Shown: positions 33,244-54,628 of the stretch, one piece after another
How the letters are laid out: each line of letters starts with the position of its first letter
Position numbering within the stretch: the first letter of the stretch is position 1
Source: a virus
Virus record (IMG/VR): IMGVR_UViG_3300002835_000026
Length of the DNA: 64,000 nt
Direction: 5' to 3' (one strand)
Translations under genes and position numbers: made by a program
Notes under the pieces: model-generated
Seen by the model: only the letters and a program-made list of their open reading frames with translations
Told to the model about the DNA's origin: nothing
Database searches by the model: none

Positions 33244-34170
33244 TTATGATGGGTTAGCGTTACTTAATGTTGTACTTATTGAGTATATTATACCTTGTAC
33301 TTCTGTATTAAACCAAATAGTGGCGGTGCCCGGGGTGTTTGGATTAGTTAATCGTATAGCAAATTTACCACTTGAATCTGTTACAGCATGATTAATTGAA
33401 CCTGAGTTTGCTATAGGTACAATATTACTACCTGAAACTACTAAATAAGTAACAGTTCCTGATGCTTGTTGGGCGGATCCAGTTTCTACAGTACTAGTCC
33501 ACCAATGTATTAATTGTTGTGGTTGTGTTAATGGTGAACTATCTGGGTTTGAAAATGTAGCTGTAATTGCTCTTTGAGCTGTTGTTGAACCACTTACTGC
33601 TAAACTACAACTTACAAGTGCTGATAAACCTGATATACCTGAAAGACCTGAAAGACCTGATAAACCTGAGCGACCTGAGGTACCGGATAAACCTGATATT
33701 CCTGATAAGCCTGAAATACCTGAACGACCGGAGATGCCTGATCCCGCTACTAATGCCCATGAACTTGGTGATTCAGATGGAGAAGCATCTGAATTATTGT
33801 TTAATGCTATATAAGAATTACCGCCTGATGAAACTATATCATTAATTTGATAATTTGTAACACTACTCCAAGCACCTTCCCAAATTAATCCTATACCTGA
33901 TAAGCCTGAGCGACCTGAAATACCACTTATACCAGATACAGTTGGAGTAGCAGCAAATGATGCTGTTAAAGCATATGAAGCTGAAACTGCGTTAGAAGAA
34001 GTAGCATTCAATGTACCATTCATATTTAATGAACCTGTGACAGTTAATGAACCACTTATTGTTATATCATAAGCTACTGTACCTGTTAAGGCATCAATAG
34101 ATTGAGTTATTTGAGCTGCTTGTACAGTTGCGCCAGTTGCTATACTCGCACTAGATAAAGTTAATGCCAT
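33244..34170 (-). CDS. Short fibre/structural protein with Gly-X-Ser repeats and one aromatic CBM5/12-like module
   Basis: [14 protein letters not shown] tracts flank GLIWEGAWSSVTNYQINDIVSSGGNSYIAL...W, the same module found in the giant fibre. Confidence 0.75.
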   Translation of the reverse strand: MALTLSSASIATGATVQAAQITQSIDALTGTVAYDITISGSLTVTGSLNMNGTLNATSSNAVSASYALTASFAATPTVSGISGISGRSGLSGIGLIWEGAWSSVTNYQINDIVSSGGNSYIALNNNSDASPSESPSSWALVAGSGISGRSGISGLSGISGLSGTSGRSGLSGLSGLSGISGLSALVSCSLAVSGSTTAQRAITATFSNPDSSPLTQPQQLIHWWTSTVETGSAQQASGTVTYLVVSGSNIVPIANSGSINHAVTDSSGKFAIRLTNPNTPGTATIWFNTEVQGIIYSISTTLSNANPS

Positions 34171-34205
34171 TTAATAGTTTTATTATAAATATGGAAAGAT
34201 AAGAG

Positions 34206-34229
34206 AAAAACCGCTACTGCTAGCGGTTT
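34206..34229 (-). terminator. Intrinsic terminator
   Basis: Minus strand AAACCGCTA-GCAG-TAGCGGTTT followed by TTCTCTT. Confidence 0.75.
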
Positions 34230-34259
34230 ATAAATATCATATTATAAGTAAATAATATA

Positions 34260-34694
34260 TTAATCTATTTGAATTAATTTGTAAAATATAATATAATTAT
34301 CTGATGTTTTAACATCATTAAATTCTTTTAATTTAAATTCATGATATTCAATTTCTTTTACTTCTTGTAATAAACCATTAAATTCTTCTTGAAATTGTAT
34401 ATATAATGGATTAAAATTTGTTTTAGTCTCATCAGTCCATACAGGAATTTCAAAATTATCATTTTTATCTTTAGTACCATACTTTACAATTAAATCTTCT
34501 TTTAATTGATTAATAATAGATTTTTCAGATGATGTTTTTTTAGCTAAATTAGTTAACCAATATTTAGTAGGTAAACTTAAATTTTCACTTAATAATCCTA
34601 ATGATAAAATTTCACCTGTTTCTTGATTTACAAAACCGTTAAGTTCTGAATCAAGTTTATAGATTTCTTGTAATGATAACTGAATATGAGCCAT
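34260..34694 (-). CDS. Hypothetical helical protein (possible fibre chaperone)
   Basis: 144 aa; LPTKYWL...LIVKYG...FQEEFNGLL. Confidence 0.6.
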   Translation of the reverse strand: MAHIQLSLQEIYKLDSELNGFVNQETGEILSLGLLSENLSLPTKYWLTNLAKKTSSEKSIINQLKEDLIVKYGTKDKNDNFEIPVWTDETKTNFNPLYIQFQEEFNGLLQEVKEIEYHEFKLKEFNDVKTSDNYIIFYKLIQID

Positions 34695-34960
34695 TATTGA
34701 TTAGCTTTAACTTGTTTTGGTTTTTTAGTTGATTTTGTTTTATTACTATAGTAATATTTTTTCTTTTTAGCTGGTTTTTCAGCTTCATTAAATGGTTTTT
34801 CTACTGCTACTGGAGCATCTTCAAAGTGAGGATAGTCTTCAACAGGAAATAAAGAATTTGGTTTTTCGTTTGTAGGTGTATTTTCTTTTCCTACAAATGC
34901 AGATACAATAATAATTGCTACTAATAATATAGTTACAATAAAAATTAAAAGTGATGACAT
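34694..34960 (-). CDS. Small membrane-anchored protein with basic tail
   Basis: N-terminal TM segment LLIFIVTILLVAIIIVSAFV; Lys-rich C-terminus. Confidence 0.7.
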   Translation of the reverse strand: MSSLLIFIVTILLVAIIIVSAFVGKENTPTNEKPNSLFPVEDYPHFEDAPVAVEKPFNEAEKPAKKKKYYYSNKTKSTKKPKQVKANQ

Positions 34961-34998: not shown

Positions 34999-35029
34999 TA
35001 AATATACAAAGATATTTTAAAGATCCAAA
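34999..35029 (-). promoter_or_regulatory. Bacteroidota-type promoter
   Basis: TTTG-19 nt-TATATTTA. Confidence 0.65.
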
Positions 35030-38000
35030 TTAAAATTTATTTTTTCTTAATTCTATCAACTCTTCTAATTTATATTCATTTTCTTCTACTGGCCAATCAT
35101 ATAGTGTACTATCTATACCTTTATGTAACACACCACCAGGTACACATAATATAAAATTTTGTTTTCCTTGAGCACCTGGTGATTTAGGATTCCAATATGT
35201 TAATTCCCAATCTAAACCTGCGTTCCAAGATGAATTAACTTGTGGATTATTATGTTGACTATCTAAATGAATAGGCATCATATCTTTAATATCTTTAGCT
35301 CGCATAACCATATGTCCTGCTCTACATGATCCTTTTACACATAAATTTCCAAATTGAGTTTCAAGCCATCCTAATTCACCATGTTCTTTACTCATATAAC
35401 CTGTAGCTACATATCTATCAGGATAAGTATTTAATATATCACAATATGTACTTATTGGTTCATTAAATAAATTGTCTTGATCTGTAAACTGAATAAAATC
35501 ATAATCATCAATATTCATGTTATCAAACATTTGAAGCATAGCTCCTCGTTGACCCATATTAAATTCTGAACTATACACTGTAAAATTATTATTTATATTT
35601 TCATTAATAACTTTTAATATTTCTTCTTTATTCTCTGGATTTGAGTTATCAACAATATAAATGTCATTTATAATACCTGGTTCTTGGATATCTTTTAATG
35701 AATTAATAATATTTTTAATATGGTGAGATCTATTAAATGATGTTAATAAAGTAAGTACTTTAGTTGGTTTAAGTAATTTAGGTAAAATATTAATTTCAAA
35801 ATCATTAGCTATTTTTTCCCAAGAATAATTTTCTCTAACATAGTCTGAATTTTCTTTTAGTACTCCACTTTTAACAATTGAATCATAATTATCATAAATA
35901 TGTTTCATATGTTTTATTAAATCTTTAACATTTGGCTCACCCCATTCTCCTTTAAACCATGGATGATTTTTAACTGATACTGATTTAGTAGAAACATTAT
36001 AGTATCTATCTTTAATTAATTCAGTTGAACCTGGTTCTGATGTAGCTATAGTTGGTAAACCACAAGCTATAGCTTCTAATATAGTCATTCCAAATGAATC
36101 ACCCCTAGATGGATAAACATAAGCATGACAACTTCTATATAAGTCCATTACTTTATCATGTCCATCATTACTAATATGCCAAAATATATTTTTATGATCT
36201 TTTATAATATTTTTTACTTCTTGACTATTGTAAAATAACATAGAGTCATTTGACTTAATGTGTAATTCTACATTATTATTATTTTTAAATAAATCAATAA
36301 AAGCTTCTAAAGTATGAAATATACCTTTTCTGTCTGAACATTCTCCTACATATAAGAACTTAAATTTGTCTTCTTTAATTTTAGGAGTATAAGTGAATAC
36401 TTTAGGATCAATACCATGAGGTACTACAAATATAGGTTTAGTAACACCCATATTTTGTATTCTTGTTTTTGATATATTAGATGGTGTTAATAAAAAATCA
36501 GCTTTATTCCCATTAACTACAAAATTACCAGCTTCATCTGTTGTGTCAACACCAGTATAAACTACTTTAGTTTTAAATTCATCTAAATGACCTATTGAAT
36601 CCGGATAAGCAAACATAATACCTAAATCAGTATTTAATGGCTTTTTTAATAAATTATGAACTAATTGATTTTTTGTTTCTGTTACTCCAATAATAGGTTT
36701 ACAAGCTAAATTTATGTTATTATCTAATTGTTCTAATAAACGTTGAGATAAAATTCCCATTGATGCATAATCATCATATTTAGCTAACCAAGTTAATTTA
36801 GGTTTATTATTAGCAATAATATTAGCTGTTTTATTATTAGTTAATGATTTAATTAAAGTATCAATATTCATACTTGGTGTACATTCATATACATGAGCTA
36901 CTTTAATTATTTCTTCATCAAATCTAATTTTTTCAAATTCATCTCCTGAATGGTTAACTATAATAATTACTTCATCTAAGTTTAAGTGCTTTTGAATATC
37001 TTTATAAGGTAAATCTTTTAATACTTTTACTTGAGTAGAATCCATTAACTTTTTACATTTACTTAAATTATATTTTACTATACCTGATGTTTTGTCTGGT
37101 TCTAATAATTTAAATGACTCTCCTTGTTTATGGATTAAAGGAAATGTAACTCCTGGATTCCATTGGTTATTATCCATATAACAAATATATCCTAAATTAT
37201 AGCCATTATTTTGTACTCTGTAAGATATTTCAACATCATCTGAGTAGCCTAATCCAAATCCTTCATCTAATAAGCCTATTTTATTTATCACTGATTTTCT
37301 AATTACTGAGCAGCAACCTAAAATATAATCACCTACTTTAACAGGACCTATAAGACCATTACTTTTATCTTTAAGTAAAGGTAATAATAATTCTTCCCAA
37401 TTTGAATGTAAATTAGCATCACTATTTAAACACATTATGTTTTCATTTTTAGCTAATTTAAAAGCTTCATTTACTGCTTTTACAAAACCTAATGCTTCTT
37501 TTTTAATATATAATTCAATTATAGGATTAGTAGCAGCAAATGCTTCTAATTTTTTATTTCCTTCTTCTTCAGTTCCGTTAGAATAAAGAATTACTTGGTT
37601 AATTATAGTTGATGTACCTAAAGTAATATTAACATTATTAATAGTATCATCTACATTATTATAAATAGGTACTACTAAAGTTAAATCAGGTTTATCTTCT
37701 TTTTTTTTTGAATAATCAATATAACCTATACCAGCAAATCCTCCTTTATTATATGTAAATTCATAAAAGAAAGGTAATGATTTTTGATCTAAAAATTGAG
37801 TATAAATAAATTCTACAAATCCGTATTTTTCTTTTAATTCTTCCCAGAATGTAGAAACAAAACAATTTGCTTCTCTATGGAAGTAACTATTGATAATATC
37901 ATGAAATCCTACTAATGCCGTAGGTGCTAAGAATTTTTCATATAATTCAAAATCACCTTTAACTCCTTCATAAGTATGATCACCATCAATAAATAAGAAA

Positions 38001-39178
38001 TCTATTTTTTGACCATTTAGTAATTCTTCTACTCTATCAATTAAATAAGAATCTTTTGAATTACCATTAACTGCGTAGAATTTTTTATTATATAAATTAG
38101 CTTGTTCTAAAGCGTCTGATATTACATATGTTCTTTCTTCAAAACCTTGACCACCATGAATTCCAATTGGATAATCAACACTAATAACAGTTTCAACTGA
38201 TGGTAATTCTAACCATCTAGATAATGTACCTCCATTAGCTGTACCAATTTCTACTACTACTTTAGGTTCATGTCTTGCGACAGTTAATTGTAAATTTTCA
38301 ATTTCTAAAGCAATTTGCATTGAACCTTCTTTTCTTAATTTAGATTGAAGCTTTAATGGTAATCTATTAAATGTATTTCTAAAGAAAATTTCATGTCTAT
38401 AAAATTCTATAGGAAACTCATCTGATATTTCTTTATAGTGTTTAGTAGGACACTCTGGTCTTTCAAAAATATCAGTACCATTGTATATACGTTGTTTAAT
38501 TTTTTCTAAATTAGAATATTCAGGTGTGTTATATTCTCTATGAGAAAAATTTAAAATTTTAGTTTGTATTTTTTCTGGTGTCATAAAAAATGATAAATGA
38601 TATCCTCCATTTTCTATATTAGGGCAATTAAAAGCATATTGTCTTAAATCATTAAACATGTTAACTTCTTTTAAAGTACTATTATTTATCCCTACAGAAG
38701 CAAAACAATCTATTAATAATTCAGTTAATGGAGAATAATAAAAAGTTTTCATTTTAAATGAGACCGCTTCTAATGTTTTATCTTTTACAATATTCCAAGC
38801 GTTATCAAATAATTCTTTTTTAGGAAATTCGTCAACTCCTGAAAGAAGAATAAAGCAATCATCATCTGATATTTCTAATGCTTTTTTTCGTAGACATTCT
38901 ATTTGTTGTATTTCTAAATGCCATTTGTCTTCTATACTTTTATTTAAATCATCTTCTGTTGGTTCATACACAACATAATGAATTTTATCTTTATACTCAT
39001 CAAATAGATAACTATTTGAAGAATATGTTAATTCTTTAAGATTACCTGTTGTTGTTCTTGTACTTTCAGCTATAACAAAATATTCAACTGAGTCATTTAG
39101 ATAATCTAATCTCATTTTTAACATTTCTAATTCATCATTGAAAAGAAAAGTATCAATTACTTTATAATTTTTATTCAT
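35030..39178 (-). CDS. Five-domain glycan-modifying enzyme: GT17-like + SAM methyltransferase + GT2 + GT4 + GT-A-like
   Basis: GT17-like: DTFLFNDELEMLKMRL...FVIAES...GGYHLSFF. Methyltransferase: VEIGTANGGT...FLFIDGDHTYEGVKGDF. GT2: LVVPIYNN...LNSDA...LDEGFGLGYSDD. GT4: VPHGID...RKG...YPSRGDSFGMTILEAIACGLP. Final GT-A-like: LLTSFNRS...IVDNS...FTDQD. Confidence 0.88.
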   Translation of the reverse strand: MNKNYKVIDTFLFNDELEMLKMRLDYLNDSVEYFVIAESTRTTTGNLKELTYSSNSYLFDEYKDKIHYVVYEPTEDDLNKSIEDKWHLEIQQIECLRKKALEISDDDCFILLSGVDEFPKKELFDNAWNIVKDKTLEAVSFKMKTFYYSPLTELLIDCFASVGINNSTLKEVNMFNDLRQYAFNCPNIENGGYHLSFFMTPEKIQTKILNFSHREYNTPEYSNLEKIKQRIYNGTDIFERPECPTKHYKEISDEFPIEFYRHEIFFRNTFNRLPLKLQSKLRKEGSMQIALEIENLQLTVARHEPKVVVEIGTANGGTLSRWLELPSVETVISVDYPIGIHGGQGFEERTYVISDALEQANLYNKKFYAVNGNSKDSYLIDRVEELLNGQKIDFLFIDGDHTYEGVKGDFELYEKFLAPTALVGFHDIINSYFHREANCFVSTFWEELKEKYGFVEFIYTQFLDQKSLPFFYEFTYNKGGFAGIGYIDYSKKKEDKPDLTLVVPIYNNVDDTINNVNITLGTSTIINQVILYSNGTEEEGNKKLEAFAATNPIIELYIKKEALGFVKAVNEAFKLAKNENIMCLNSDANLHSNWEELLLPLLKDKSNGLIGPVKVGDYILGCCSVIRKSVINKIGLLDEGFGLGYSDDVEISYRVQNNGYNLGYICYMDNNQWNPGVTFPLIHKQGESFKLLEPDKTSGIVKYNLSKCKKLMDSTQVKVLKDLPYKDIQKHLNLDEVIIIVNHSGDEFEKIRFDEEIIKVAHVYECTPSMNIDTLIKSLTNNKTANIIANNKPKLTWLAKYDDYASMGILSQRLLEQLDNNINLACKPIIGVTETKNQLVHNLLKKPLNTDLGIMFAYPDSIGHLDEFKTKVVYTGVDTTDEAGNFVVNGNKADFLLTPSNISKTRIQNMGVTKPIFVVPHGIDPKVFTYTPKIKEDKFKFLYVGECSDRKGIFHTLEAFIDLFKNNNNVELHIKSNDSMLFYNSQEVKNIIKDHKNIFWHISNDGHDKVMDLYRSCHAYVYPSRGDSFGMTILEAIACGLPTIATSEPGSTELIKDRYYNVSTKSVSVKNHPWFKGEWGEPNVKDLIKHMKHIYDNYDSIVKSGVLKENSDYVRENYSWEKIANDFEINILPKLLKPTKVLTLLTSFNRSHHIKNIINSLKDIQEPGIINDIYIVDNSNPENKEEILKVINENINNNFTVYSSEFNMGQRGAMLQMFDNMNIDDYDFIQFTDQDNLFNEPISTYCDILNTYPDRYVATGYMSKEHGELGWLETQFGNLCVKGSCRAGHMVMRAKDIKDMMPIHLDSQHNNPQVNSSWNAGLDWELTYWNPKSPGAQGKQNFILCVPGGVLHKGIDSTLYDWPVEENEYKLEELIELRKNKF

Positions 39179-39187: not shown

Positions 39188-40036
39188 TTAATTATCATGG
39201 ATATTATTTAATTCTATTACACTATTATTTAAATGGTATTTTTTAATAGATTCACTTGTTGATAAAAATCTTTCAGAAAATCTATCTCCTCGTCTAGGTT
39301 CTATTATAATTTTTTCTCTATTTGGATATAAATCATTAGCTACATCTATCATACTTCTACTATGTCCTGAATTAACTATAAATCGTGATTTATTAGGATA
39401 ATTCATAGTATATATAATTAAACCTATAGCTTCTCCTAATGATATAAAATGTCTTTGGCATGTAGGAGCTACTTTAATTGGAGAATCTAGAGATAATGAA
39501 TTCCATATTTCAAATACATTTCCTGATGATTCAACAACATTAAAAAATCGAGCTATACTTCCTCCATTATTTAATACCATTCGTTCCGCTATTAATTTTG
39601 AAGCTCCGTATACAATTTCAGGATTACAAGATTTACAAGTAGAAGTTAATATAATTTTACAATTAAGAGGCATACAATCTATTAAATTTTTTGTTCCTAT
39701 AGTATTAATAGATAAAGTTTCCCAAGTTTCATGTTCACCTTTAGGAGCATGTTTCGCTCCAGCAATATTAATAATAATATTAGGTTGAAATTTATTTAAT
39801 ATTGTTTTGACTTGATTAAAATCAGTTATATCCATATACTCCATATCTCCTTCTATATCAGTAGCTAAATAAGATACTTTATCTTTATCAAATTTTTTAC
39901 AAAGTGCAGTTCCTATACTTCCATTAGCTCCTGTAATAAGAATTTTTTGTTTTTTATTTTTTAATTTAATATTAAGTAAATCAATATATTGATTTCGTCC
40001 TAATACTTTTTCTACATCATTATAACTTATTTTCAT
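39188..40036 (-). CDS. NDP-sugar 4,6-dehydratase/epimerase (CapD/PglF-like SDR)
   Basis: ITGANGSIG, AGAKHA, YGASK, RFFNV..SSG.V and PRRGDRFSE motifs. Confidence 0.85.
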   Translation of the reverse strand: MKISYNDVEKVLGRNQYIDLLNIKLKNKKQKILITGANGSIGTALCKKFDKDKVSYLATDIEGDMEYMDITDFNQVKTILNKFQPNIIINIAGAKHAPKGEHETWETLSINTIGTKNLIDCMPLNCKIILTSTCKSCNPEIVYGASKLIAERMVLNNGGSIARFFNVVESSGNVFEIWNSLSLDSPIKVAPTCQRHFISLGEAIGLIIYTMNYPNKSRFIVNSGHSRSMIDVANDLYPNREKIIIEPRRGDRFSERFLSTSESIKKYHLNNSVIELNNIHDN

Positions 40037-40646
40037 CTGTTAAAAAATTAAATTTAATTATTAAATTATTTAAATATTCTTTATTTATATTATTTCTTTC
40101 TAAACCTATAGTATTTTCTTTTAAAAATCTAGATGGAGATCCTATGTAAATATTTCCAGGTTCAATTTTAGAATTTTTAGTTACAATTGTTCCCATTCCT
40201 ATCATAGAATAAGCTCCTATTATTTTAAATTGATGACATATACTTCCTAATCCCATATTTACTCCTTCCATTATGTAACTATGCCCTCCTATTAATACAT
40301 TACAAGATAAATTAACTTTATTTTCTATAATAGAATCATGACCAATATGACTATTTCTTAATATAATAGTATTATTTTTTAATATTGTATTTCTTATTGT
40401 GCCTGCGTTTATAGTTACAAATTCTCTAACTATATTATTATTACCTATAATAACATTAAACGCACTATTAGTAAAATAATCTCTATGTTCTGGTGGTGTA
40501 CCTATAGAACAATAGGCTTCAAATCTATTATTATCTCCTATTATAGTATCTCCTGTAATGTAACAATAAGGACCAATATAATTATTTTCTCCTAAAGTAA
40601 CATTTTCTCCTATAATAGCTGTAGGATGTATTAAATTATTTTTCAT
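40020..40646 (-). CDS. LpxA-like left-handed beta-helix acyl/acetyltransferase
   Basis: Hexapeptide repeats; IHPTAII, IREFVTINAGT-like, SHIGHDS, GGHS and HQF motifs. Confidence 0.85.
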   Translation of the reverse strand: MKNNLIHPTAIIGENVTLGENNYIGPYCYITGDTIIGDNNRFEAYCSIGTPPEHRDYFTNSAFNVIIGNNNIVREFVTINAGTIRNTILKNNTIILRNSHIGHDSIIENKVNLSCNVLIGGHSYIMEGVNMGLGSICHQFKIIGAYSMIGMGTIVTKNSKIEPGNIYIGSPSRFLKENTIGLERNNINKEYLNNLIIKFNFLTDENKL

Positions 40647-41943
40647 TTATAATTTTTAAAACGTTTTCTAATTTAATTAAATTCATACATTCTTTTCTTT
40701 CTGGTTGTTGTAGGTCCATCCACCATCTTCTATTGTAATAATTTTTACCACAATTTTTTTCAATATATTTCACTCCAGGATGTTTAGCATGGTTATTATA
40801 GAATGGGGTTAAACAAATACCTACATTTGGTTTAACAGAAGAAGCAAAATGATGAAAAAATGTATCTACACTTAACCATAAACTTGATTCATCTATTAAT
40901 CCTGCTAACTCTGCTATTGATTTATCTAAAAATTTACTATCTACTCCACCAGGAGAAAATGACATTGGGAATTGATTATCATTACTTGAACCTACTTGTA
41001 TAACATGATATCCTAATTTTTTTAACTCAAATATTAAATTAAACCACCTAACTTCAACCCAGTCTTTATTTGAATCTTGATTTTGGATTCTAGCTGCTGA
41101 AGGGCAGATTAATACTAATGGTTTACCGGTTGTGTTTTCAAATTTAATTTTAGGACCTGTATAATTTAATATATCTTGAGATTCTCGATTTTCTCTATAC
41201 ATTTTAAAAAATGCTTCTATAATTGTAGGAGAATTATGAGCTGATCCATAAGAATAAACAAATTTTTTATATCCTCCAAATAATTCATCATTCCAAGATA
41301 TAAAACCTTTAATATTAATATGTTCTAAAGCAAATGGATAAATACAAGATACATAACAATCTTTACCTATTTTTTCTAATAATGGGTACGCCATAACATG
41401 ATCTCCTAATCCACCATCAACATGTATTATTCTTTCATAAAATAATGGATTAATTATTTTTTTATTATATCTTTCTGAGTCTGGTGTATTATCAGATGTA
41501 AAAGGGTATTTAGTTTTTTGAGTAATTAAATCTGCTATAAACCACCTTATAGATTGATATTTGGTATCATGATTAAGGTATAATAAATCACTAGTTTTTG
41601 CTAATAAATAAGTATTATTCAATGTATCCCACTCTTTAACGCCAAAATAACCATCATTTTCATCTATCAATAAACAATACTCTGTTTCAATGTTATATAT
41701 AAGTTCTATAGTAGATTGAAGTATATTACTTAAAGTAGGGTTAATAAAATAACTATGATAAGCTAAAGTTGTTAATTTATTTAGTAAATTTTGATTAGTC
41801 CAAGGAGTATATCCCTTACAATTAATTTGTAAAGTTTTAATTTGGGATTTAATTGGATCATTATGTAATTTATCTAATAAAGATATTAGTTTTTCTTCAT
41901 TTTCTGTATGAATTATAACTGTTATTTCTTTTTGTAACTCCAT
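40636..41943 (-). CDS. GT9 (heptosyltransferase-like) glycosyltransferase, paralog 2
   Basis: GGLGDHVMAYP...NKDW..RW..LI...IQVG...LAGLI...SVDTFFHHFA. Confidence 0.8.
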   Translation of the reverse strand: MELQKEITVIIHTENEEKLISLLDKLHNDPIKSQIKTLQINCKGYTPWTNQNLLNKLTTLAYHSYFINPTLSNILQSTIELIYNIETEYCLLIDENDGYFGVKEWDTLNNTYLLAKTSDLLYLNHDTKYQSIRWFIADLITQKTKYPFTSDNTPDSERYNKKIINPLFYERIIHVDGGLGDHVMAYPLLEKIGKDCYVSCIYPFALEHINIKGFISWNDELFGGYKKFVYSYGSAHNSPTIIEAFFKMYRENRESQDILNYTGPKIKFENTTGKPLVLICPSAARIQNQDSNKDWVEVRWFNLIFELKKLGYHVIQVGSSNDNQFPMSFSPGGVDSKFLDKSIAELAGLIDESSLWLSVDTFFHHFASSVKPNVGICLTPFYNNHAKHPGVKYIEKNCGKNYYNRRWWMDLQQPERKECMNLIKLENVLKIINEK

Positions 41944-43279: not shown

Positions 43280-43299
43280 AACTTAATTGTATTTACTAA

Positions 43300-43331
43300 T
43301 AAATATAATAACTTGGTTTTAGATATCCAAA
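43300..43331 (-). promoter_or_regulatory. Bacteroidota-type promoter for the glycosyltransferase operon
   Basis: TTTG-20 nt-TATATTTA. Confidence 0.7.
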
Positions 43332-43337: not shown

Positions 43338-44057
43338 TTAATTAAATTCAAATCTCCATTTAAATCCACCACCAGTTGATCCTGTAAATGAAGCAGTTGG
43401 TTCAGGACCTTGGGCCGCGTAATTAAGATTATAAGTAGTACCGTCGAGGATTGGGTTTATATTAAATATAGTTTGTTCTCCATTACCATCATTTGCATCA
43501 CAGAGTCCACGCATACTTCCAGTTAATACACTTCTATAATCACAATAAAAATCTAAAGTCCAATAACAATTTTGAACATTAGGTGTTTGATCTGTAGATA
43601 ATAATAGTGGACCAATAATATTAAGTCCTGGACCATTAAGATCTGCTTGGTAATCTGAAACTAAAGTAGTTGTTGTAAGTGAATCTGTAATTTTAAAAGT
43701 TACATCAGTTATAGTATCTGATCCTCCAAATAATACATCAATATCATATTGTACACTGTAATTAGGGAAAACACCTGGATCATTACCTTCACAGGTTCCT
43801 AGTAAATCATAAAATTTTCCAAGAGATTGAGTAGTATTTTGTTGTCTAGTACCACATAATCTATTAGCATAATTATAAGATCCACTAGAACCCCAACCTG
43901 TATAAGGATATGTATTATTACCATATGGTCCTTTAGGCCATGATTCTTTCATAAAAACACTAGCTGACACGTTAGTACCAGGAGTTAATCCTAAATTTGC
44001 TGAGTCAAGTACATCATTATATGAAATTGTACTTCCTGAAGATGGCGTTACTCCCAT
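43338..44057 (-). CDS. Fibre-associated protein (possible tip/adhesin)
   Basis: Starts 2 nt after the fibre stop; beta-rich composition; N-terminus MGVTPSSGSTISYNDV. Confidence 0.55.
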   Translation of the reverse strand: MGVTPSSGSTISYNDVLDSANLGLTPGTNVSASVFMKESWPKGPYGNNTYPYTGWGSSGSYNYANRLCGTRQQNTTQSLGKFYDLLGTCEGNDPGVFPNYSVQYDIDVLFGGSDTITDVTFKITDSLTTTTLVSDYQADLNGPGLNIIGPLLLSTDQTPNVQNCYWTLDFYCDYRSVLTGSMRGLCDANDGNGEQTIFNINPILDGTTYNLNYAAQGPEPTASFTGSTGGGFKWRFEFN

Positions 44058-47000: not shown

Positions 47001-50000
47001 GAAATACCTGAACGACCTGATGTTCCTGAAGCTCCTGAAGCACCACTTAAACCTGAAGTTCCTGAAGCACCACTTGCACCTGATGTTCCTGATGCTCCAC
47101 TTGTACCTGAAGCTCCTGATGTACCTGATAAACCTGAAATACCTGATGTACCTGAAGTTCCACTTGCTCCAGAAGCACCACTTGTTCCTGATGCGCCACT
47201 TGTACCTGAAGCTCCTGAAGTACCGCTTGCACCTGATATACCGGACCCAGCTACTAAACTCCAATATGTTGGGTTTGTAGGAACAGTTGCTTCACTTTGT
47301 AATATGTTTATATAAGTACTTCCATTATATGAAACAACATTATTAGGAATATAAGTTGTAGCACCACTATAAGCACCTAACCAAATTAAACCTATACCTG
47401 AGCGACCTGATGTACCTGAAGCACCTGAAGCACCACTTGTTCCTGAAGCACCTGAAGTTCCTGATGCACCTGATGTACCACTTGCACCTGAAGTTCCACT
47501 TAAACCTGAAATTCCTGATGTACCTGATGTTCCACTAGCACCTGAAGCACCACTTGTACCTGAAGCACCTGATGTACCTGATGCGCCACTTAGTCCTGAG
47601 ATACCTGAGTTTCCTGATGTACCGCTTGCGCCTGAAGCACCTGAAGTACCGCTTGCGCCTGAAGTACCTGAAGCACCACTTAGGCCTGAAATGCCTGAGT
47701 TTCCTGATGTACCGCTTGCGCCTGAAGCTCCACTTGTACCTGAAGCACCTGAAATACCTGATAAACCACTTATACCTGAACGTCCTGAAATACCTGATCC
47801 TGCCACTAATGACCATGAACTTGGTGTATCTGATGGAGCTGCATCATTATTATTATTTAAAGCTATATAAGAACTTCCAAGGTATGATACTAAGTCATTT
47901 GTTTGATAATTTGTAGCACTACTCCAAGAACCTTCCCAAATTAGACCTATACCTGAAAGACCAGATATACCACTTAGACCTGAGATACCTGAGTTGCCGC
48001 TTAAGCCTGAAATACCTGAGTTACCTGATGTACCTGAAGCACCACTTAAACCTGATATACCTGAGTTACCTGATGTACCTGAGGCGCCACTTAGACCTGA
48101 GATACCTGAGTTGCCGCTTAAGCCTGAAATACCTGAGTTACCTGAAGCGCCTGATGTACCACTTAGACCTGAAATGCCACTTAAACCTGAGATGCCTGAG
48201 TTACCTGATGTACCTGAAATGCCTGATAAACCTGAAATACCGCTTAAACCTGATATACCTGAGCGACCTGAGATGCCTGATCCTGCTACTAAACTCCAAT
48301 ATGTTGGTGATTCGTTAGGTGATTGGTCTAAACTATTTTGTATCGCTATATATGTGTTTCCAAGGTATGATACTAAATCATTAGTTTGATAGTTTGTAGC
48401 ACTACTCCAAGAACCTTTCCAAATTAGACCTATACCTGAAAGACCTGAAATTCCGCTTAAACCTGATATACCACTTAGACCTGAAATGCCTGAGCGACCT
48501 GAAATACCGCTTAGACCTGAAATTCCTGAAATACCAGAAATACCACTTAAACCAGATATACCTAAAATTCCTGATAAACCTGAAATACCTGAGCGACCTG
48601 AGATGCCTGAAGCCGCTACTAGTTCCCAATATGTTGCATTTGTAGGTAAATTATTTAAGTTGCTATTTGTAATTGATATATAAGAACTTCCATTATATGA
48701 AACTAAATCATTAATGTTATAAGTTACTTCAAAATCCCATCCTCCTGCTTTCCAATATAAACCTATACCTGATAAACCTGAGCGACCTGAAGTACCAGAT
48801 AAACCTGATATTCCTGATAAGCCTGATATACCACTTAGGCCTGAGGTACCTGATAAACCTGAAATACCTGAGTTACCTGATAAACCTGAGATGCCACTTA
48901 GGCCTGAGATGCCTGAATTACCACTTAAGCCTGATATACCTGAAAAACCTGAAAGACCACTAACTGCTATAATAGACCAATATGTTGGTTGAGCTGATGG
49001 AGTAGCGCTAATATTACTATCTTGTAAAGAAATATAAGAACTTCCTTGATAATAAACTATATCATTTATATTATATAAAGTAAATGCATCCCAAGTACCT
49101 TCCCAAATTAAACCTATACCTGATAAACCTGAAATACCTGAGCGACCTGATGTTCCTGAAGCACCTGAAATGCCTGAAATGCCACTTAAACCTGATAAAC
49201 CTGATATACCACTTAGACCAGAAATACCTGATATGCCACTTAATCCTGAAATACCTGAGCGACCTGAATCTCCACTTATACCTGAAAGTCCTGAATTACC
49301 ACTTAGTCCTGATATACCTGAGATGCCTGAAAGACCAGATATACCTGAACGACCTGAGTTTCCATCAGTACCACTTAATCCTGAAATACCTGAGTTACCA
49401 CTTAAACCTGAAATACCTGATAAGCCTGATATGCCACTTATACCTGATAAACCAGATAAACCTGAAATTCCACTTATACCTGATAAACCTGAAATACCTG
49501 ATAAGCCACTTATACCTGAAATTCCTGATAATCCACTTATACCTGAAATACCGGATATACCACTTAATCCTGAAATGCCGCTTAAACCTGATATTCCTGA
49601 AATACCACTTAAACCTGAAATTCCTGATATACCACTTAAACCACTTACACCTGAAATACCTGATAAACCTGATTCACCGCTTAAACCTGATATTCCTGAA
49701 ATACCACTTAAACCTGAAATACCGCTTATACCTGATAAACCTGATAGACCAGATGTACCGCTTAAACCAGATGTGCCTGAGAGTCCTGAAATACCAGAAA
49801 GACCTGATATACCTGATATACCTGATATACCACTTAGACCTGAGGTACCTGAAATACCTGATAAACCACTTTCACCACTTAATCCTGAAATGCCACTTAT
49901 ACCTGATAAACCAGATAGACCTGAATCGCCACTTAAACCTGAAATGCCACTTAATCCGCTTATACCTGAAAGTCCTGATAAACCTGATTCACCACTTAAT

Positions 50001-53000
50001 CCACTTATACCTGATAAACCAGATGTACCTGAAAGACCTGATGTACCTGATAAACCACTGATACCTGATGTACCACTTAAGCCTGAGGTACCACTTAAAC
50101 CTGAAAGACCAGATTCACCACTTAAGCCTGAGGTACCACTTAAACCACTTATACCTAAATTACCTGATAAGCCTGAAATACCACTTAAACCTGAAATTCC
50201 TGATAAACCTGATAAACCTGATTCACCACTTAAGCCTGATATTCCTGAAAGTCCTGAGATGCCACTTAGTCCTGAAATACCGCTTATACCTAATAATCCT
50301 GAAATGCCTGATGTACCTAAAAGTCCTGATATTCCTGACTCACCGCTTAATCCTGAGATGCCACTTAATCCACTTATGCCTGAAGTACCTGATAAACCTG
50401 AAATACCTGATGTACCGCTTAAACCACTTATACCTGATAAACCTGATAAACCACTTTCCCCTGATAATCCTGAGATGCCACTTGTACCTGACAAGCCTGA
50501 AATTCCGCTTAATCCTGATAAGCCACTTTCGCCTGATAAACCTGAAATACCTGAAGTGCCACTTAAACCTGATGTACCTGATAAGCCTGAAAGTCCTGAG
50601 ATGCCTGAAGTACCACTTAAACCTAAAATACCACTTATGCCTGATATGCCACTTAATCCACTTATACCTGATGTACCGCTAAGGCCTGATAAGCCACTTT
50701 CGCCTGAAAGACCTGATAAGCCTGAAAGTCCTGATATACCTGATGTACCTGATAAACCTGAAATTCCGCTTGTACCTAAAAGTCCTGATAAGCCACTTTC
50801 GCCTGATAATCCTGAAATACCTGATGTACCACTTAATCCACTTATGCCGCTTAAACCTGAAATACCTGATGTACCACTTAATCCACTTATGCCGCTTAAA
50901 CCTGAAATACCTGAGTCACCGTTTAGACCTGAAGTACCTGATAAACCACTAATTCCACTTAAACCTGATGTACCACTTAATCCTGAAATGCCACTTATAC
51001 CTGATAAACCTGAAATACCTGAAAGTCCTAAGGTACCACTTAATCCACTTATACCTGAAGTTCCTAATAAACCTGAAATTCCTAATATACCGCTAAGACC
51101 TGATAATCCACTTTCGCCTGATAATCCTAAAATACCACTTATACCTGAAATACCTGATACACCACTTAAACCTGAAATACCGGAATCACCATTTAAACCT
51201 GATATACCGCTTAAACCACTTATACCTGAGATGCCACTTAGGCCTGAAATTCCTGAAAGACCTAATATTCCTGATTCACCACTTAATCCTGAGATGCCTG
51301 ATAAACCAGAAACACCTGATAGACCTGATAAACCGCTTATACCTGATAGACCTGAAGTACCACTTAAACCTGAAAGTCCTGAGTCACCGTTTAAACCTGA
51401 TATGCCTGAAAGACCAGATACACCATTTAATCCGCTTACACCTGATATTCCTGATAAGCCTGATATACCGCTTGTACCTGATAAGCCAGAAATGCCTGAA
51501 GTACCTTCTAAACCTGATATGCCTGAAAAACCTGAAATACCGCTTAATCCTAAAATACCTGAGATGCCTGAGATGCCTGATAAACCACTTAATCCAGATA
51601 AGCCACTTTCACCATTTAAACCTGAAATACCACTTAAACCTAAAAGTCCTGAAATACCTGATGTACCGCTTAAACCTGATAAACCTGATTCACCACTTAA
51701 GCCTGAAATACCACTTAAACCTGAAAATCCTGATGTACCGCTAAGACCTGATATACCTAAAAGTCCTGAAATACCTGATGTACCGCTTAAACCTGATAAA
51801 CCTGATTCACCACTTAAGCCTGAAATACCGCTTGTGCCTGATAAACCTAAAATACCTGATAAACCACTTTCACCACTTAAACCTGATAAACCTAAGATAC
51901 CTGAAATACCATTTAAACCAGAAATACCGCTTGTTCCTAACAATCCTGAAACCCCACTTAAACCTGAAAGACCTGATGTTCCTGAAAGACCTGATATACC
52001 ATCTATACCAGAAAATCCTGATAAACCGCTTAAACCTGAGGTACCTGACATACCTGAAAGTCCTGATATACCTGATGTACTTATACCACTTAAACCAGAT
52101 AAACCGGAAAGTCCTGAAGTTCCATCTATGCCTGAAAGACCTGATATACCGCTTAAACCTGATGTACCTAATAAACCTGAAAGTCCTGATGAGCCGCTTA
52201 ATCCTGAAAGACCTGAGTCTCCATTTAATCCTAAAATACCACTTATACCACTTAAACCTGAAATTCCTGAGTCACCGTTTAGACCTAAAATTCCTGATAA
52301 ACCTGAAATACCAGACAATCCTAAAATACCAGATAGGCCTGAAGTACCACTTAGACCAGAAATACCTGAATCTCCAATATTACCATTTGTACCACTTAAT
52401 CCTGAAATACCTGATGTGCCATTTAAACCTGAAATACCTGAATTTCCAATTAAACCAGATATACCTGAAACTCCTTCTAAACCTGAAATACCTGAAGTAC
52501 CATTTGTACCTGATAAGCCACTTATACCTGACTGACCTAATAAACCTGAAGTGCCTTCTAAACCTGAAATTCCTGAAGTACCGTTTGTACCATTAGTACC
52601 ACTTAAACCAGAAATTCCTGAATTACCTAAAAGTCCTGAAATACCTGAAGCTCCTTCTAAACCTGAGATGCCTGAAATACCATTTATACCTGAAATACCT
52701 TCTAAACCTGATATTCCTGAAGTTCCATTTGTACCATTTGTACCTGAAAGTCCTGAAATACCACTTAATCCTGAAGTACCTAAGATACCACTTAATCCTG
52801 AGATGCCTGAGTCACCATTTAGACCTAACAAACCTGATAAACCACTTATACCTGAAGTTCCTAATGTACCTGATAAACCTGAAAGTCCTGATGTACCTTC
52901 AAGACCTGAAAGACCGGATGTACCATTTGTTCCATTTGTTCCTGATAAACCAGATAAACCTGAAGTTCCTAATGTACCTGATAAACCTGATAAACCTGAT

Positions 53001-54628
53001 GTACCATTTAATCCACTTAAACCTGATGTACCTTCAAGACCTGAAAGACCTGAAGTTCCGTTTGTACCGGATAAACCACTTAGACCTGAAGTTCCAGTGC
53101 CACTTAAGCCTGATAAACCACTTGTGCCTTCTAAACCACTTAGACCTGAAGTACCATTTGTACCACTTGTTCCTGATAAACCTGAGAGACCTGATGTACC
53201 AGTACCACTTAATCCACTTAGACCAGATATACCTTCTAAACCTGAAAGTCCTGAGGTACCATTTGTTCCTGATAAACCTGAAAGTCCTGAGGTACCATTT
53301 GTACCATTAGTTCCTGAGAAACCACTTATACCAGATAAACCACTTATACCTTCTAAGCCACTTATACCTGATGTACCAATTGTACCACTTAATCCACTTA
53401 TACCTGAAGTTCCAGTTCCACTAAGACCTGAAAGACCAGATGTACCTTCTAAACCAGATAAACCTGATAAGCCTGATAAGCCTGATAAGCCTGATAAACC
53501 AGTTCCTGAAAGACCAGATAAACCTGAGGTTCCAGTACCACTAAGACCTGAAAGTCCTGAAAGTCCTGTTCCACTAAGACCAGAAATTCCTGATGTACCT
53601 TCTAAACCTGATAAACCTGAAATTCCGTTTATACCTGATAAACCGCTTAAACCAGAAGTGCCAGTACCACTTAAACCTGAAAGTCCTGATGTACCTAATA
53701 TGCCACTTAGACCTGATGTACCTTCAAGACCTGAAAGACCGGATGTACCATTTGTTCCTGATAAACCTGAAAGTCCTGAAGTACTAGTACCACTAAGACC
53801 TGAAAGACCAGATGTACCTTCTAAGCCTGAAAGACCAGATGTACCATTAGTACCATTAGTACCTGAAAGACCTGAAAGTCCTGATATACCTGTACCACTT
53901 AGGCCTGATAAACCACTTAAGCCTTCTAAACCTGAGAGTCCTGAGGTACCATTTGTACCATTAGTTCCTGATAAACCACTTAGACCTGATGTACCAGCTC
54001 CTGACAAACCAGATAAACCTGAAGTTCCAGTACCACTAAGACCTGAAAGTCCTGATAAACCTTCTAAACCAGAAAGACCTGAAGTTCCATTAGTTCCTGA
54101 AAGACCGCTCAAACCAGAAGTTCCTGTTCCACTTAAACCACTTAGACCTGAAGTTCCTGTACCACTTAAACCAGATAAACCACTTATACCTTCTAAACCT
54201 GATAAACCTGAGGTACCATTAGTTCCTGATAAACCGCTTAATCCTGAGGTGCCAGTTCCACTTAATCCTGATAAACCTGAAGTGCCAGTACCACTTAAAC
54301 CTGATAAACCTTCTAAACCTGAAAGTCCTGATGTACCATTTATTCCTGATAAACCACTTATACCAGATGTTCCAGCGCCACTTAGTCCTGAAATACCTGA
54401 TGTACCTGTTCCTGATAAACCTGAAATACCTGAGGTGCCAGTACCACTTAAGCCTGAAATACCTGAGGTGCCAGTACCACTTAAACCTGAAAGACCTGAT
54501 AAACCTGAAAGTCCAGATGTACCAATTCCACTACTACCTCCTGAAGTAGGTACTTCAAAAGAAGCTATAGATACTTGATCTAAAAATCGTACATTGTTTC
54601 TTGGTATGGAGTTATTGATTCTGGCCAT
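44060..54628 (-). CDS. Giant Gly-X-Ser repeat fibre with 8 aromatic modules and a C-terminal peptidase S74 chaperone
   Basis: 3522-aa ORF, mostly (G-X-S)n with X = L/I/T/A. Eight GIGLxWxG...Y..N..V.Y.G..YI...P...W modules. C-terminus YYSDERLK...GVIAQD...PEVV...[19 protein letters not shown]. Confidence 0.88.
44610..54540. repeat. Coding 9-nt-period tandem repeat tract
   Basis: Plus-strand units such as acctgaagc, acctgatgt and accacttaa repeat for about 10 kb, with larger near-perfect blocks at the 44.6-45.2 kb end. Confidence 0.95.

What the first reader, a model, noticed from the sequence alone, without database searches (positions are those of the whole stretch)
33244..54628. Candidate phage-encoded glyco-collagen system: a proline-free Gly-X-Ser fibre with its own glycosylation operon
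Seen: a 3522-aa (G-X-S)n protein and a 308-aa protein with the same repeats bracket an operon of two GT9-like enzymes, an LpxA-like acyltransferase, an NDP-sugar dehydratase and a five-domain GT/methyltransferase. The repeats have Gly every third residue, Ser in nearly every Y position and no Pro. Established: S74 chaperone domains drive trimerisation of phage fibres. Y-position glycosylated Thr stabilises the triple helix of Riftia cuticle collagen. Streptococcal serine-rich repeat adhesins are O-glycosylated by GTs encoded beside them. Inference: the phage makes an acylated/methylated glycan and attaches it to many hundreds of Y-position serines. This would give a stabilised, mucin-like trimeric filament for adhesion, host capture or shielding.
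Basis: partly seen in the sequence, partly recalled or inferred. Interest (0 to 1): 0.9.

Follow-up and report, generated by a model that had tools for sequence, protein, structure and literature searches.

The report
Phage serine-collagen fibres with own glycosyltransferases
An uncultured T4-like aquatic phage encodes a giant proline-free Gly-X-Ser collagen-like fibre and a short one. They flank a block of sugar-transferase genes, and comparison with many other phages suggests the enzymes sugar-coat the fibres, though nothing has been tested at the bench.

Summary
44060-54628(-) encodes a 3522-aa protein with 2808 residues in Gly-X-Y register. Ser fills 89% of Y positions and the repeats hold no Pro. 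It also has eight CBM5/12 beads and a C-terminal S74 chaperone. 33244-34170(-) is a short fibre of the same kind.

Between them lie two GT9-fold paralogs, an LpxA-like acyltransferase, a PglF/PseB-like dehydratase and a five-domain GT/methyltransferase.

- The order fibre, GT9-like, GT4/GT2 enzyme, fibre, sheath is kept in about ten relatives.
- The GT pair also sits beside Gly-X-Ser proteins in six of nine contexts on unrelated or unanchored backbones.
- Sister phages carry a true TibC/Aah protein O-heptosyltransferase in the same slot.
- Enzyme type tracks repeat type without overlap: this family goes with hydrophobic X, TibC-type with Ser/Thr X.
- In a sample chosen only by a (GXS)6 DNA pattern, all 5 complete fibre-bearing genomes have a GT9 gene. 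It lies within 6.5 kb of the repeats in the 4 I could place.

Not shown: glycosylation itself, the glycan, or any effect on the triple helix. The GT operon has an early/middle-type promoter, so action on the host envelope remains a live rival.

This scan has reported the TibC-type pairing on other DNA at least eight times. New here is a second, apparently phage-only GT9 family.

The parts
44060..54628 (-). Fibre 1, 3522 aa. It has a conserved 28-aa N-terminus, about 1800 aa of almost continuous Gly-X-Ser, then eight CBM5/12 beads separated by Gly-X-Ser spacers, then the S74 chaperone domain.
   Evidence: The N-terminus is 93% identical and the C-terminus 66-74% identical to fibres in L006-L015.
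45263..49111 (-). Zone of eight CBM5/12-like modules of 49-51 aa (residues 1840-3122), each flanked by Gly-X-Ser.
   Evidence: Pfam CBM_5_12 86.9 bits; module boundaries.
44231..44416 (-). Peptidase_S74 intramolecular chaperone core (residues 3405-3466).
   Evidence: Pfam PF13884, 50.3 bits against a cut-off of 22.
43338..44057 (-). 239-aa Ser/Thr/Gly/Asn-rich protein. It starts 2 nt after the fibre stop and its function is unknown. A protein of 190-240 aa follows the S74 fibre in relatives too.
   Evidence: No family match. Weak N-terminal similarity to L027:4634-5296 (28% over 75 aa).
41945..43279 (-). GT9a, 444 aa: GT-A-like N-domain (1-167) plus GT9-fold GT-B domain (169-444). This is the divergent paralog; it departs from the family at 16 of 139 highly conserved columns.
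   Evidence: AF2 model pLDDT 91. Z 16.5-18.7 to four GT9-fold structures, including WaaF and TibC..
40636..41943 (-). GT9b, 435 aa: the orthodox copy, with 0 departures at the conserved columns. It is the copy closest to all relatives.
   Evidence: PF01075 24.5 bits against a cut-off of 22.
40020..40646 (-). LpxA-like left-handed beta-helix acyltransferase, 208 aa. Found only in this window among the relatives sampled.
   Evidence: NF003657 149 bits (cut-off 226); PDB 8e62 E 6e-38.
39188..40036 (-). SDR of the UDP-GlcNAc 4,6-dehydratase type (PglF/WlaL, PseB/FlaA1-like), 282 aa. Found only in this window among the relatives sampled.
   Evidence: Polysacc_synt_2 112 bits; PDB 5bjy E 8e-17, 2gn4 E 4e-15.
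35030..39178 (-). 1382-aa five-domain enzyme: GT17-like (4-240), CmcI/Methyltransf_24 (288-430), GT2 (500-660), GT4 (865-1130), GT2 (about 1146-1240). The C-terminal 600 aa is the part kept in every relative.
43297..43331 (-). Promoter-like site heading the GT operon: TTTGG, 20 nt, then TATATTTATTA. Replication genes carry the same type.
34694..34960 (-). 88-aa ORF with a hydrophobic N-terminal segment, preceded by a second TTTGG-type promoter at 35000-35029.
34260..34694 (-). 144-aa protein (phrog_1401), kept between the GT block and fibre 2 in all close relatives. A terminator-like hairpin follows at 34208-34229.
33244..34170 (-). Fibre 2, 308 aa: conserved N-terminus (1-73), short Gly-X-Ser stretch with one CBM5/12 module, and a conserved C-terminal domain (185-304). 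Relatives have 753-1600 aa versions. Two late-type ATATTTATAA boxes lie upstream.
32973..33224 (-). 83-aa protein that always lies between fibre 2 (or the TibC-type enzyme in sister phages) and the sheath gene.
30918..32918 (-). Tail sheath, the anchor used for the comparison.

Best explanation
This is a phage-encoded protein glycosylation module whose substrates are the phage's own proline-free collagen-like fibres.

Proposed mechanism:
1. In the infected cytoplasm, the GT9-fold enzymes put a first sugar on the Ser hydroxyl at Y positions of the Gly-X-Ser repeats. GT9b is the orthodox copy and GT9a a diverged duplicate. The sugar is probably a heptose, or another sugar from a nucleotide donor.
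2. The five-domain enzyme extends and O-methylates the glycan.
3. In this phage, the PglF/PseB-like dehydratase and the LpxA-like acyltransferase supply an extra modified HexNAc-type donor.
4. The C-terminal S74 domain trimerises the chains and is then cut off.

The product would be a filament of up to about 0.8 micrometre if it is triple-helical. It would be densely glycosylated and carry eight rings of CBM5/12 carbohydrate-binding beads. Its likely role is adhesion to polysaccharide particles or host surfaces.

Shown: the gene content, the folds and the comparative associations. Inferred: acceptor, donor, order of steps and function.
For: 1. Conserved order. S74 Gly-X-Ser fibre, small proteins, GT9-like, GT4/GT2 enzyme, 144-aa protein, second Gly-X-Ser fibre, 83-aa protein, sheath: this order holds in L006-L015. 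The nearest isolate, Flavobacterium phage immuto, lacks both fibres and GTs.

2. Mobility with the fibre.
- In L002, L004 and L016-L019 the only proteins similar to any of the window's 55 are the two GTs (51-64% identity) and a 36-41% sheath domain.
- L004, L017, L018 and L019 nevertheless have a Pro-free Gly-X-Ser fibre within a few kb.
- L219 and L221 do too. In L221 the trio sits among replication genes.

3. Same slot, known enzyme. Sister phages (sheath 56-70% identical) carry a true TibC/Aah O-heptosyltransferase plus GT4s between the S74 collagen fibre and the 83-aa/sheath genes. TIGR04414 scores 302-325 bits against a cut-off of 200. For sheath-anchored loci with at least 7 kb upstream the table is 9/1/1/9, Fisher p = 0.001.

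4. Enzyme-repeat covariation. The 15 loci with this GT9 family have hydrophobic X in 49-83% of triplets. The 11 loci with TibC-type have 2-34%. There is no overlap (U = 0, p = 2e-5).

5. Unbiased sample chosen by a (GXS)6 DNA pattern.
- PF01075 occurs in 21 of 39 contigs with a real fibre, against 1 of 9 where the pattern was not a fibre.
- Among near-complete genomes the counts are 5/5 against 0/4.
- The GT9 gene lies 0.5-6.5 kb from the repeats in four genomes of 160-300 kb.
- Four of the five are true TibC-type.
- TibC-type occurs in only 4 of 50,697 GenBank phage records, and this family in none.

6. Donor. RfaE-like kinase, adenylyltransferase and a HAD phosphatase lie between fibre and GT9 gene in L018 (ORFs of the same sizes and order in L019); rfaE_dom_II (193 bits) lies near it in L002.

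7. No flippase, polymerase or initiating phosphoglycosyl transferase is in the block. That fits cytoplasmic protein glycosylation.

8. Ser at Y is kept across both codon families.
Against: - There is no direct evidence of glycosylation.
- The window's GT9-like proteins are not TibC family members. They give no TIGR04414 hit. hhalign against the sister phages' TibC-type gives only E 0.013. Remote relatives match LPS heptosyltransferases and TibC equally weakly. The fold match cannot separate TibC (Z 17.2) from WaaF/WaaC (Z 18.0/16.5).
- The operon's promoter has the TTTGG element seen before the ATPase, SSB and polymerase-like genes, so it looks early/middle.
- Three contexts of this GT9 family show no collagen-like fibre in view: L002/L003, L016 and L220. 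One (L222) has Pro-containing collagen. Some TibC-type loci have Pro-rich collagen with few Ser.
- The association tests are not corrected for shared ancestry. Fibre type and enzyme type could both track host clade.
- No heptose-pathway gene was seen in the 64-kb window.
Confidence: 0.6

Rival explanations
1. The enzymes modify the host cell envelope (LPS core, O-chain or capsule) during infection. The purpose might be to block superinfection or to stop progeny sticking to infected cells and debris. They sit beside fibre genes only because both belong to the host-recognition region.
For: - The best family matches of three genes are LPS or polysaccharide enzymes: GT9 heptosyltransferases, LpxA, Polysacc_synt_2.
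- The operon has a host-type promoter like the replication genes.
- A published study of pelagimyophages noted glycosyltransferases inside the tail-fibre cluster and read them this way (PMC7029224).
- Fibre type and enzyme type could both follow the host.
Against: - The two bacterial-genome scan patterns found no relative of this GT9 family, and 50,697 GenBank phage records hold no match.
- The equivalent slot in sister phages holds a TibC/Aah-type enzyme, a family known to glycosylate protein Ser, not LPS (PMC4358343).
- No flippase, polymerase or initiating transferase is present.
- Enzyme subtype tracks the X residue of the fibre shaft, not a receptor-binding tip.
- In L221 the trio lies outside any fibre or host-recognition cluster.
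Confidence: 0.17
2. The enzymes glycosylate another virion protein, such as capsid, sheath or the small Ser/Thr-rich proteins next to the fibres, as in mycobacteriophages. The fibres are not the acceptor, or not the main one.
For: - The block sits in the structural module.
- The fibre-less contexts have other Ser/Thr/Gly-rich proteins directly upstream: three 300-aa paralogs in L002 and Gly-rich proteins in L016.
- A Ser/Thr-rich protein of 190-240 aa always follows the S74 fibre.
- Virion glycosylation of capsid and tail tube is known in mycobacteriophages (Freeman et al. 2023, as cited in PMC12619734).
Against: - The strongest and most general correlate of the enzymes is the Gly-X-Ser repeat itself.
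- With 832 Y-position Ser per chain, the fibre is by far the largest pool of candidate acceptors.
Confidence: 0.12
3. There is no functional link. Fibres and transferases simply accumulate in the same plastic, insertion-tolerant region. Alternatively, the transferases modify DNA.
For: - The region is variable between relatives in GT domain content, fibre length and extra genes.
- Aquatic myophages have hypervariable islands of this kind (PMC7029224).
Against: - Adjacency recurs on unrelated backbones and in four complete genomes, within 6.5 kb out of 160-300 kb.
- Enzyme subtype covaries with repeat subtype.
- The window has its own DNA-modification genes of another kind, QueC and a radical-SAM enzyme.
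- I saw no hydroxymethylase in the proteins I scanned.
Confidence: 0.08

Closest known systems
TibC-TibA and Aah-AIDA-I of E. coli (bacterial autotransporter heptosyltransferases, BAHT; TIGR04414; PDB 4RAP/4RB4; PMC4358343)
   Same: - A GT9-fold GT-B enzyme with an extra N-terminal domain, encoded next to a highly repetitive Ser-rich protein that it would hyper-glycosylate in the cytoplasm.
- True family members occupy the same genomic slot in sister phages.
- Heptose-nucleotide genes accompany the window's family in distant relatives.
   Different: - The window's enzymes are not family members by sequence.
- The N-terminal domain is alpha/beta and GT-A-like with a D-E-(D/N/S) motif, not a beta-barrel.
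- Three conserved Cys plus His stand in place of the four-Cys iron finger.
- The presumed acceptor is a collagen-like repeat, not a beta-helix.
BclA-type collagen-like spore glycoproteins of Bacillus and Clostridioides with adjacent glycosyltransferases (for example SgtA-BclA3; PMC7157674, PMC8968730)
   Same: Prokaryotic Gly-X-Y repeats with a hydroxy amino acid at Y are O-glycosylated by enzymes encoded nearby, giving a hair-like surface filament.
   Different: - There the repeats are Pro-containing with Thr at Y (PMC8968730, gives bacterial X about 19-31% Pro and Y about 32-48% Thr). Here there is no Pro, and Ser is at Y.
- The enzymes are unrelated.
- The context is a phage virion, and the length is up to 3522 aa.
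Mycobacteriophage virion glycosylation (Freeman et al. 2023, as cited in PMC12619734)
   Same: Phage-encoded glycosyltransferases next to structural genes modify virion proteins.
   Different: There the acceptors are C-terminal extensions of capsid and tail-tube subunits. Here the candidate acceptor is a collagen-like fibre, and the enzyme families differ.
Giant-virus glycosylated fibrils and multi-domain GT/methyltransferase enzymes (Mimivirus collagen-like proteins; chlorovirus A064R; review PMC9614988)
   Same: A virus-encoded, host-independent glycosylation machinery, with fused GT and methyltransferase domains and sugar-nucleotide enzymes, decorates virion surface proteins. Mimivirus glycosylates its own collagen (PMC8968730).
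   Different: - Those are eukaryotic viruses.
- The Mimivirus collagen chemistry goes through hydroxylysine (from my own knowledge; not checked here).
- I tested no sequence relationship.

Membership tests
Collagen-like triple-helix repeat proteins (Pfam PF01391) | Gly at every third residue over long runs | tested here: met
   2808 residues in Gly-X-Y runs, the longest 987 residues; Pfam Collagen 1131 bits.
Collagen-like triple-helix repeat proteins (Pfam PF01391) | The chains actually form a trimeric triple helix | not testable with these tools
Peptidase_S74 intramolecular chaperone fibres (PF13884) | C-terminal S74 domain above the Pfam cut-off | tested here: met
   50.3 bits against a cut-off of 22, residues 3405-3466.
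Peptidase_S74 intramolecular chaperone fibres (PF13884) | Autoproteolytic release after trimerisation | not testable with these tools
   Needs protein chemistry.
CBM5/12 carbohydrate-binding modules (PF02839) | Domain match above the cut-off | tested here: met
   Large fibre: 86.9 bits against 26.2, with eight modules by sequence. The single module of the 308-aa fibre scores only 19.7 bits, below the cut-off.
GT9 glycosyltransferases (PF01075; ADP-heptose-dependent GT-B) | Family HMM above the cut-off | tested here: inconclusive
   GT9b scores 24.5 bits against a cut-off of 22. GT9a has no Pfam hit, only NF007742 at E 4e-5.
GT9 glycosyltransferases (PF01075; ADP-heptose-dependent GT-B) | GT-B fold closest to solved GT9 structures | tested here: met
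   Model pLDDT 91. 3tov Z 18.7, WaaF Z 18.0, TibC Z 17.2, WaaC Z 16.5, well above the next unrelated rows at about 11.
GT9 glycosyltransferases (PF01075; ADP-heptose-dependent GT-B) | Uses ADP-heptose as donor | not testable with these tools
   Only indirect evidence: RfaE-like genes lie beside family members in L018 and L002. None was seen in the window.
BAHT (TibC/Aah protein O-heptosyltransferases, TIGR04414) | Family HMM above the cut-off (200 bits) | tested here: not met
   Neither paralog gives a TIGR04414 hit at E <= 0.01. The sister phages' enzymes score 302-325 bits.
BAHT (TibC/Aah protein O-heptosyltransferases, TIGR04414) | N-terminal flattened beta-barrel domain | tested here: not met
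   Residues 1-167 are predicted as alternating strand and helix, and align to GT-A domains at Z 9.5-11.
BAHT (TibC/Aah protein O-heptosyltransferases, TIGR04414) | Four-Cys iron finger | tested here: inconclusive
   The family keeps C383, C404, C425 and H394 in the region that hhalign aligns to the TibC-type Cys cluster. No coordinates were available to check the geometry. GT9a has Ser at 425.
BAHT (TibC/Aah protein O-heptosyltransferases, TIGR04414) | Encoded next to its Ser-rich repeat substrate | tested here: met
   Adjacent to Gly-X-Ser fibres in 15 of 19 distinct contexts.
LpxA (acyl-ACP:UDP-GlcNAc O-acyltransferase) | Equivalog HMM above the cut-off | tested here: not met
   NF003657 149 bits against 226; TIGR01852 136 against 231. 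The protein is 208 aa and the match ends at model position 224 of 264. Best PDB hit is a 189-aa LpxA-like chain, 8e62.
UDP-GlcNAc 4,6-dehydratases (PseB/PglF/CapD type) | Polysacc_synt_2 domain and equivalog HMM | tested here: inconclusive
   Pfam 112 bits against 20.2 is met. TIGR03589 PseB gives 69 bits against 408, so the equivalog is not met.
Accessory-Sec serine-rich-repeat glycosylation (GtfA/GtfB) | GtfA equivalog | tested here: not met
   TIGR02918 gives 28 bits against a cut-off of 575, and only within the GT4 domain.

The most novel reading that the evidence does not exclude
Aquatic phages have evolved a proline-free collagen in which O-glycosylated Ser (probably heptosylated) takes over the stabilising role of hydroxyproline. 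Two separate GT9 lineages would each have co-evolved with their own repeat dialect: TibC-type with G-(S/T)-S, and the phage-only family described here with G-(L/I/A/T)-S. The products would be sub-micrometre to micrometre glyco-filaments studded with carbohydrate-binding beads, which tether virions to polysaccharide particles or host surfaces.
Probability: 0.3. Interest if true: 0.85.

Novelty: new variant of a known kind. Interest (0 to 1): 0.72.

Why it matters
If true, this is a widespread and undescribed post-translational system of environmental phages. The virus would build and attach its own glycan to hundreds of serines on a collagen-like filament.

- It would give a new answer to how a triple helix can be stable without proline.
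- It would enlarge the known role of GT9/TibC-type enzymes beyond bacterial adhesins.
- It would change how 'LPS-like' glycosyltransferases in phage tail-fibre clusters are annotated; they are currently read as host-surface modifiers.
- It is directly testable. A cultured phage, Microcystis phage Mel-JY01, carries the TibC-type version of the pairing, and its fibre gene is mis-annotated on the wrong strand.
- The repeats plus enzymes could also serve as a recombinant glyco-collagen material.

Tried and rejected
- No whole genome is held for the window, and the window has no tRNA genes.
- A single-protein scan of viral contigs with GT9a found nothing. The alignment-based scan worked.
- The scan of 185,579 bacterial and archaeal species genomes for this GT9 family found no relative. 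Only two peptide patterns were used, so absence is not proven.
- Sequence searches of the PDB with either paralog or with the family profile found no relative. Only the fold search identified GT9.
- Foldseek and VIA-align could not separate TibC from the LPS heptosyltransferases.
- The generic sigma-70 scan was uninformative, with 91 sites against 91.1 expected.
- Literature searches found no paper describing glycosylation of phage collagen-like fibres. No paper on Mel-JY01 is in the held library.
- I considered DNA glycosylation and rated it low. I saw no hydroxymethylase in the proteins I scanned, and the phage has 7-deazaguanine-type genes instead.
- I considered that the repeats are a recent slippage artefact and rejected it. 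The DNA copies are 60-88% alike and Ser uses both codon families.

Full report
WHAT IS THERE

The window is an AT-rich (about 30% GC) phage contig with every gene on the minus strand.
- It carries a T4-type capsid gene, prohead protease, PhoH, tail sheath, tube and a tape-measure-like gene. Further on are replication and nucleotide-metabolism genes.
- The nearest cultured relative is Flavobacterium phage immuto, with a sheath 48% identical.
- No whole genome is held for the window.

The large fibre is 44060-54628, 3522 aa.
- 2808 residues lie in Gly-X-Y register. Ser is at 832 of 936 Y positions.
- X is mostly Leu, Thr, Ile or Ala, and the repeats contain no Pro.
- Eight modules of 49-51 aa match CBM5/12.
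- A Peptidase_S74 chaperone sits at residues 3405-3466.
- Ser at Y is encoded by both TCN (608) and AGY (224) codons, and the DNA repeats are only 60-88% alike. The array is therefore old and kept by selection on the protein.

The short fibre, 33244-34170, has the same repeats and one CBM5/12 module.

The genes between them are:
- a 239-aa protein of unknown function;
- two GT9-like paralogs, 63% identical;
- an LpxA-like acyltransferase;
- a PglF/PseB-like dehydratase;
- a 1382-aa protein with GT17-like, methyltransferase, GT2, GT4 and GT2 domains;
- an 88-aa membrane ORF;
- a 144-aa protein.

THE GT9-LIKE ENZYMES

- An AlphaFold model built on 28 relatives has pLDDT 91.
- Residues 169-444 adopt the GT9 GT-B fold. 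Z-scores are 3tov 18.7, WaaF 18.0, TibC 17.2 and WaaC 16.5. These are tied, so the fold does not say whether the acceptor is protein or LPS.
- Residues 1-167 form a GT-A-like domain (Z about 11) with a conserved D-E-(D/N/S) motif.
- By sequence the family is not TibC/Aah. There is no TIGR04414 match. hhalign against the TibC-type enzymes of sister phages gives E 0.013. Remote relatives hit LPS heptosyltransferases and TibC equally weakly.
- The family has 233 representatives at E < 1e-3 in 1.8 billion proteins. The two bacterial-genome scan patterns found no relative, and 50,697 GenBank phage records hold no match.
- GT9b matches the family consensus at all 139 highly conserved columns. GT9a departs at 16, so GT9a is the derived duplicate.

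IS THE GT BLOCK TIED TO THE FIBRES? FIVE TESTS

1. Synteny. Ten IMG/VR loci (L006-L015; about eight distinct) show the order S74 Gly-X-Ser fibre, two small proteins, GT9-like, an enzyme matching the C-terminal 600 aa of the 1382-aa protein, the 144-aa protein, a second Gly-X-Ser fibre whose ends match the 308-aa protein, the 83-aa protein, sheath, tube. Phage immuto has neither fibres nor GTs.

2. Mobility.
- In L002, L004 and L016-L019 nothing resembles the window's 55 proteins except the two GTs (51-64% identity) and a 36-41% sheath domain.
- Four of these six still have a Pro-free Gly-X-Ser fibre within a few kb.
- L219 and L221 add two more. In L221 the trio lies among thymidylate synthase, dCMP deaminase and DnaB genes.
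- Exceptions: L002/L003 have three Ser/Thr-rich 300-aa paralogs instead. L016 has Gly-rich proteins, L220 has nothing, and L222 has Pro-containing collagen with S74.

3. Same slot, known enzyme.
- A sheath-anchored scan found sister phages in which a Pro-free G-(S/T)-S fibre with S74 is followed by two GT4 enzymes and a true TibC/Aah O-heptosyltransferase, directly before the 83-aa and sheath genes. TIGR04414 scores 302-325 bits against a cut-off of 200.
- TibC is experimentally a cytoplasmic Ser O-heptosyltransferase of a repeat protein (PMC4358343).
- For loci with at least 7 kb upstream, GT and fibre presence give 9/1/1/9, Fisher p = 0.001. This is not corrected for ancestry.

4. Covariation. 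Fibres next to the window's GT9 family have hydrophobic X in 49-83% of triplets (15 loci). Fibres next to TibC-type enzymes have 2-34% (11 loci). There is no overlap, p = 2e-5.

5. An unbiased sample chosen by a (GXS)6 DNA pattern.
- PF01075 occurs in 21 of 39 contigs with a real fibre, against 1 of 9 where the pattern was not a fibre.
- Among near-complete genomes the counts are 5/5 against 0/4.
- In four genomes of 160-300 kb the GT9 gene lies 0.5-6.5 kb from the repeats.
- Four of the five are true TibC-type. That type is present in only 4 of 50,697 GenBank phage records.

DONOR AND GLYCAN

- L018 carries RfaE-I-like kinase, RfaE-II-like adenylyltransferase, a HAD phosphatase and a cupin between fibre and GT9 gene. 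L019 has ORFs of the same sizes and order but I did not scan them. L002 has rfaE_dom_II above cut-off nearby. This points to a nucleotide-heptose donor for the family.
- No such gene was seen in the window.
- The dehydratase and LpxA-like genes are unique to this window among the sampled relatives. So an 'acylated' glycan is at most a local elaboration.
- The methyltransferase domain is common in relatives.

TIMING

- Sheath, tube, the short fibre and other structural genes are preceded by ATATTTATAA.
- The GT operon has TTTGG, 20 nt, then TATATTTATTA (43297-43331). Its TTTGG element is shared with the ATPase, SSB and polymerase-like genes.
- No terminator separates the fibre and 239-aa genes from the operon, so late read-through is also possible.
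- This fits enzymes made ahead of their substrate. It fits a host-directed early function equally well, and it is the main point in favour of the rival.

VERDICT

- The most likely reading is a phage-encoded protein glycosylation module acting on its own Gly-X-Ser fibres (0.6).
- The rivals are host-envelope modification (0.17), another virion acceptor (0.12), and no link or DNA modification (0.08).
- The held literature describes phage GTs beside fibres only as host modifiers (PMC7029224). It describes virion glycosylation only in mycobacteriophages, and collagen-like glycosylation only in spore proteins and Mimivirus.
- Earlier follow-ups in this scan reported the TibC-type pairing on at least eight other genomes. 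I re-tested that claim on independent loci.
- What this window adds is a second, apparently phage-only GT9 family paired with a distinct repeat dialect.
- A cultured carrier of the TibC-type version exists, Microcystis phage Mel-JY01. Its collagen-like gene is annotated on the wrong strand.

Noticed in passing
window 1435-4192 (-): QueC (126 bits) and a radical-SAM protein lie close together. This suggests 7-deazaguanine-type DNA modification in this phage.
   Followed up: no
L223 (Microcystis phage Mel-JY01, PP395634.1) 1-3052: GenBank annotates two minus-strand 'hypothetical proteins' rich in Pro/Val/Glu. These are shadow frames of a plus-strand G-(S/T)-S collagen-like ORF of at least 1016 aa, about 1.7 kb upstream of a 1226-aa 'methyltransferase FkbM' whose C-terminus is TibC-type.
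   Followed up: partly
window 44602-54578 (+): Long plus-strand ORFs of up to 1121 aa are antisense shadows of the fibre repeats, not genes.
   Followed up: partly
window: late-type boxes 26897-26906, 29240-29249, 30893-30902, 32946-32955, 34183-34192, 34228-34237, 57708-57717; TTTGG-type sites 5535-5564, 8383-8413, 17014-17044, 21069-21099, 35000-35029, 43301-43331 (all -): There are two promoter-like classes. ATATTTATAA about 20-30 nt before structural genes, and TTTGG-N20-TATATT before replication genes and the GT operon. The second resembles the Bacteroidota -33/-7 type, which would fit a flavobacterial host.
   Followed up: partly
L142:4083-4511, L150:2203-2631, L106:8254-8715; P0143 and many about 155-aa proteins: A family of proteins of about 150 aa matches only positions 270-368 of the GT9-like profile (the C-lobe). 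It occurs near Gly-X-Ser fibres and relatives of the 1382-aa enzyme. Its function is unknown.
   Followed up: no
L002:133-2877 and L016:489-2483: Where the GT9-like gene has no collagen fibre nearby, it is preceded by three paralogous Ser/Thr-rich 300-aa proteins (L002) or by extremely Gly-rich 325-334-aa proteins (L016). These may be alternative acceptors.
   Followed up: no
L004:3718-9264: An 1848-aa fibre combines a Gly-X-Ser zone with about 900 aa of a second Ser/Gly/Asn-rich repeat of roughly 15-16 residues, which looks like a beta-solenoid. A Laminin_G_3 protein follows, then the GT9-like gene.
   Followed up: no
window 62812-63903 (-): A 363-aa protein gives a weak, sub-threshold match to the GT-D fold (PF08759, E 0.007). 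That family is known from serine-rich-repeat adhesin glycosylation.
   Followed up: no
L066, L091, L092, L033: Some sister phages have proline-rich collagen-like fibres (GPI/GPQ type). In L066, L091 and L092 these lie beside TibC-type enzymes. So the enzyme-fibre pairing is not limited to Ser-rich repeats, or else the acceptor there is different.
   Followed up: partly
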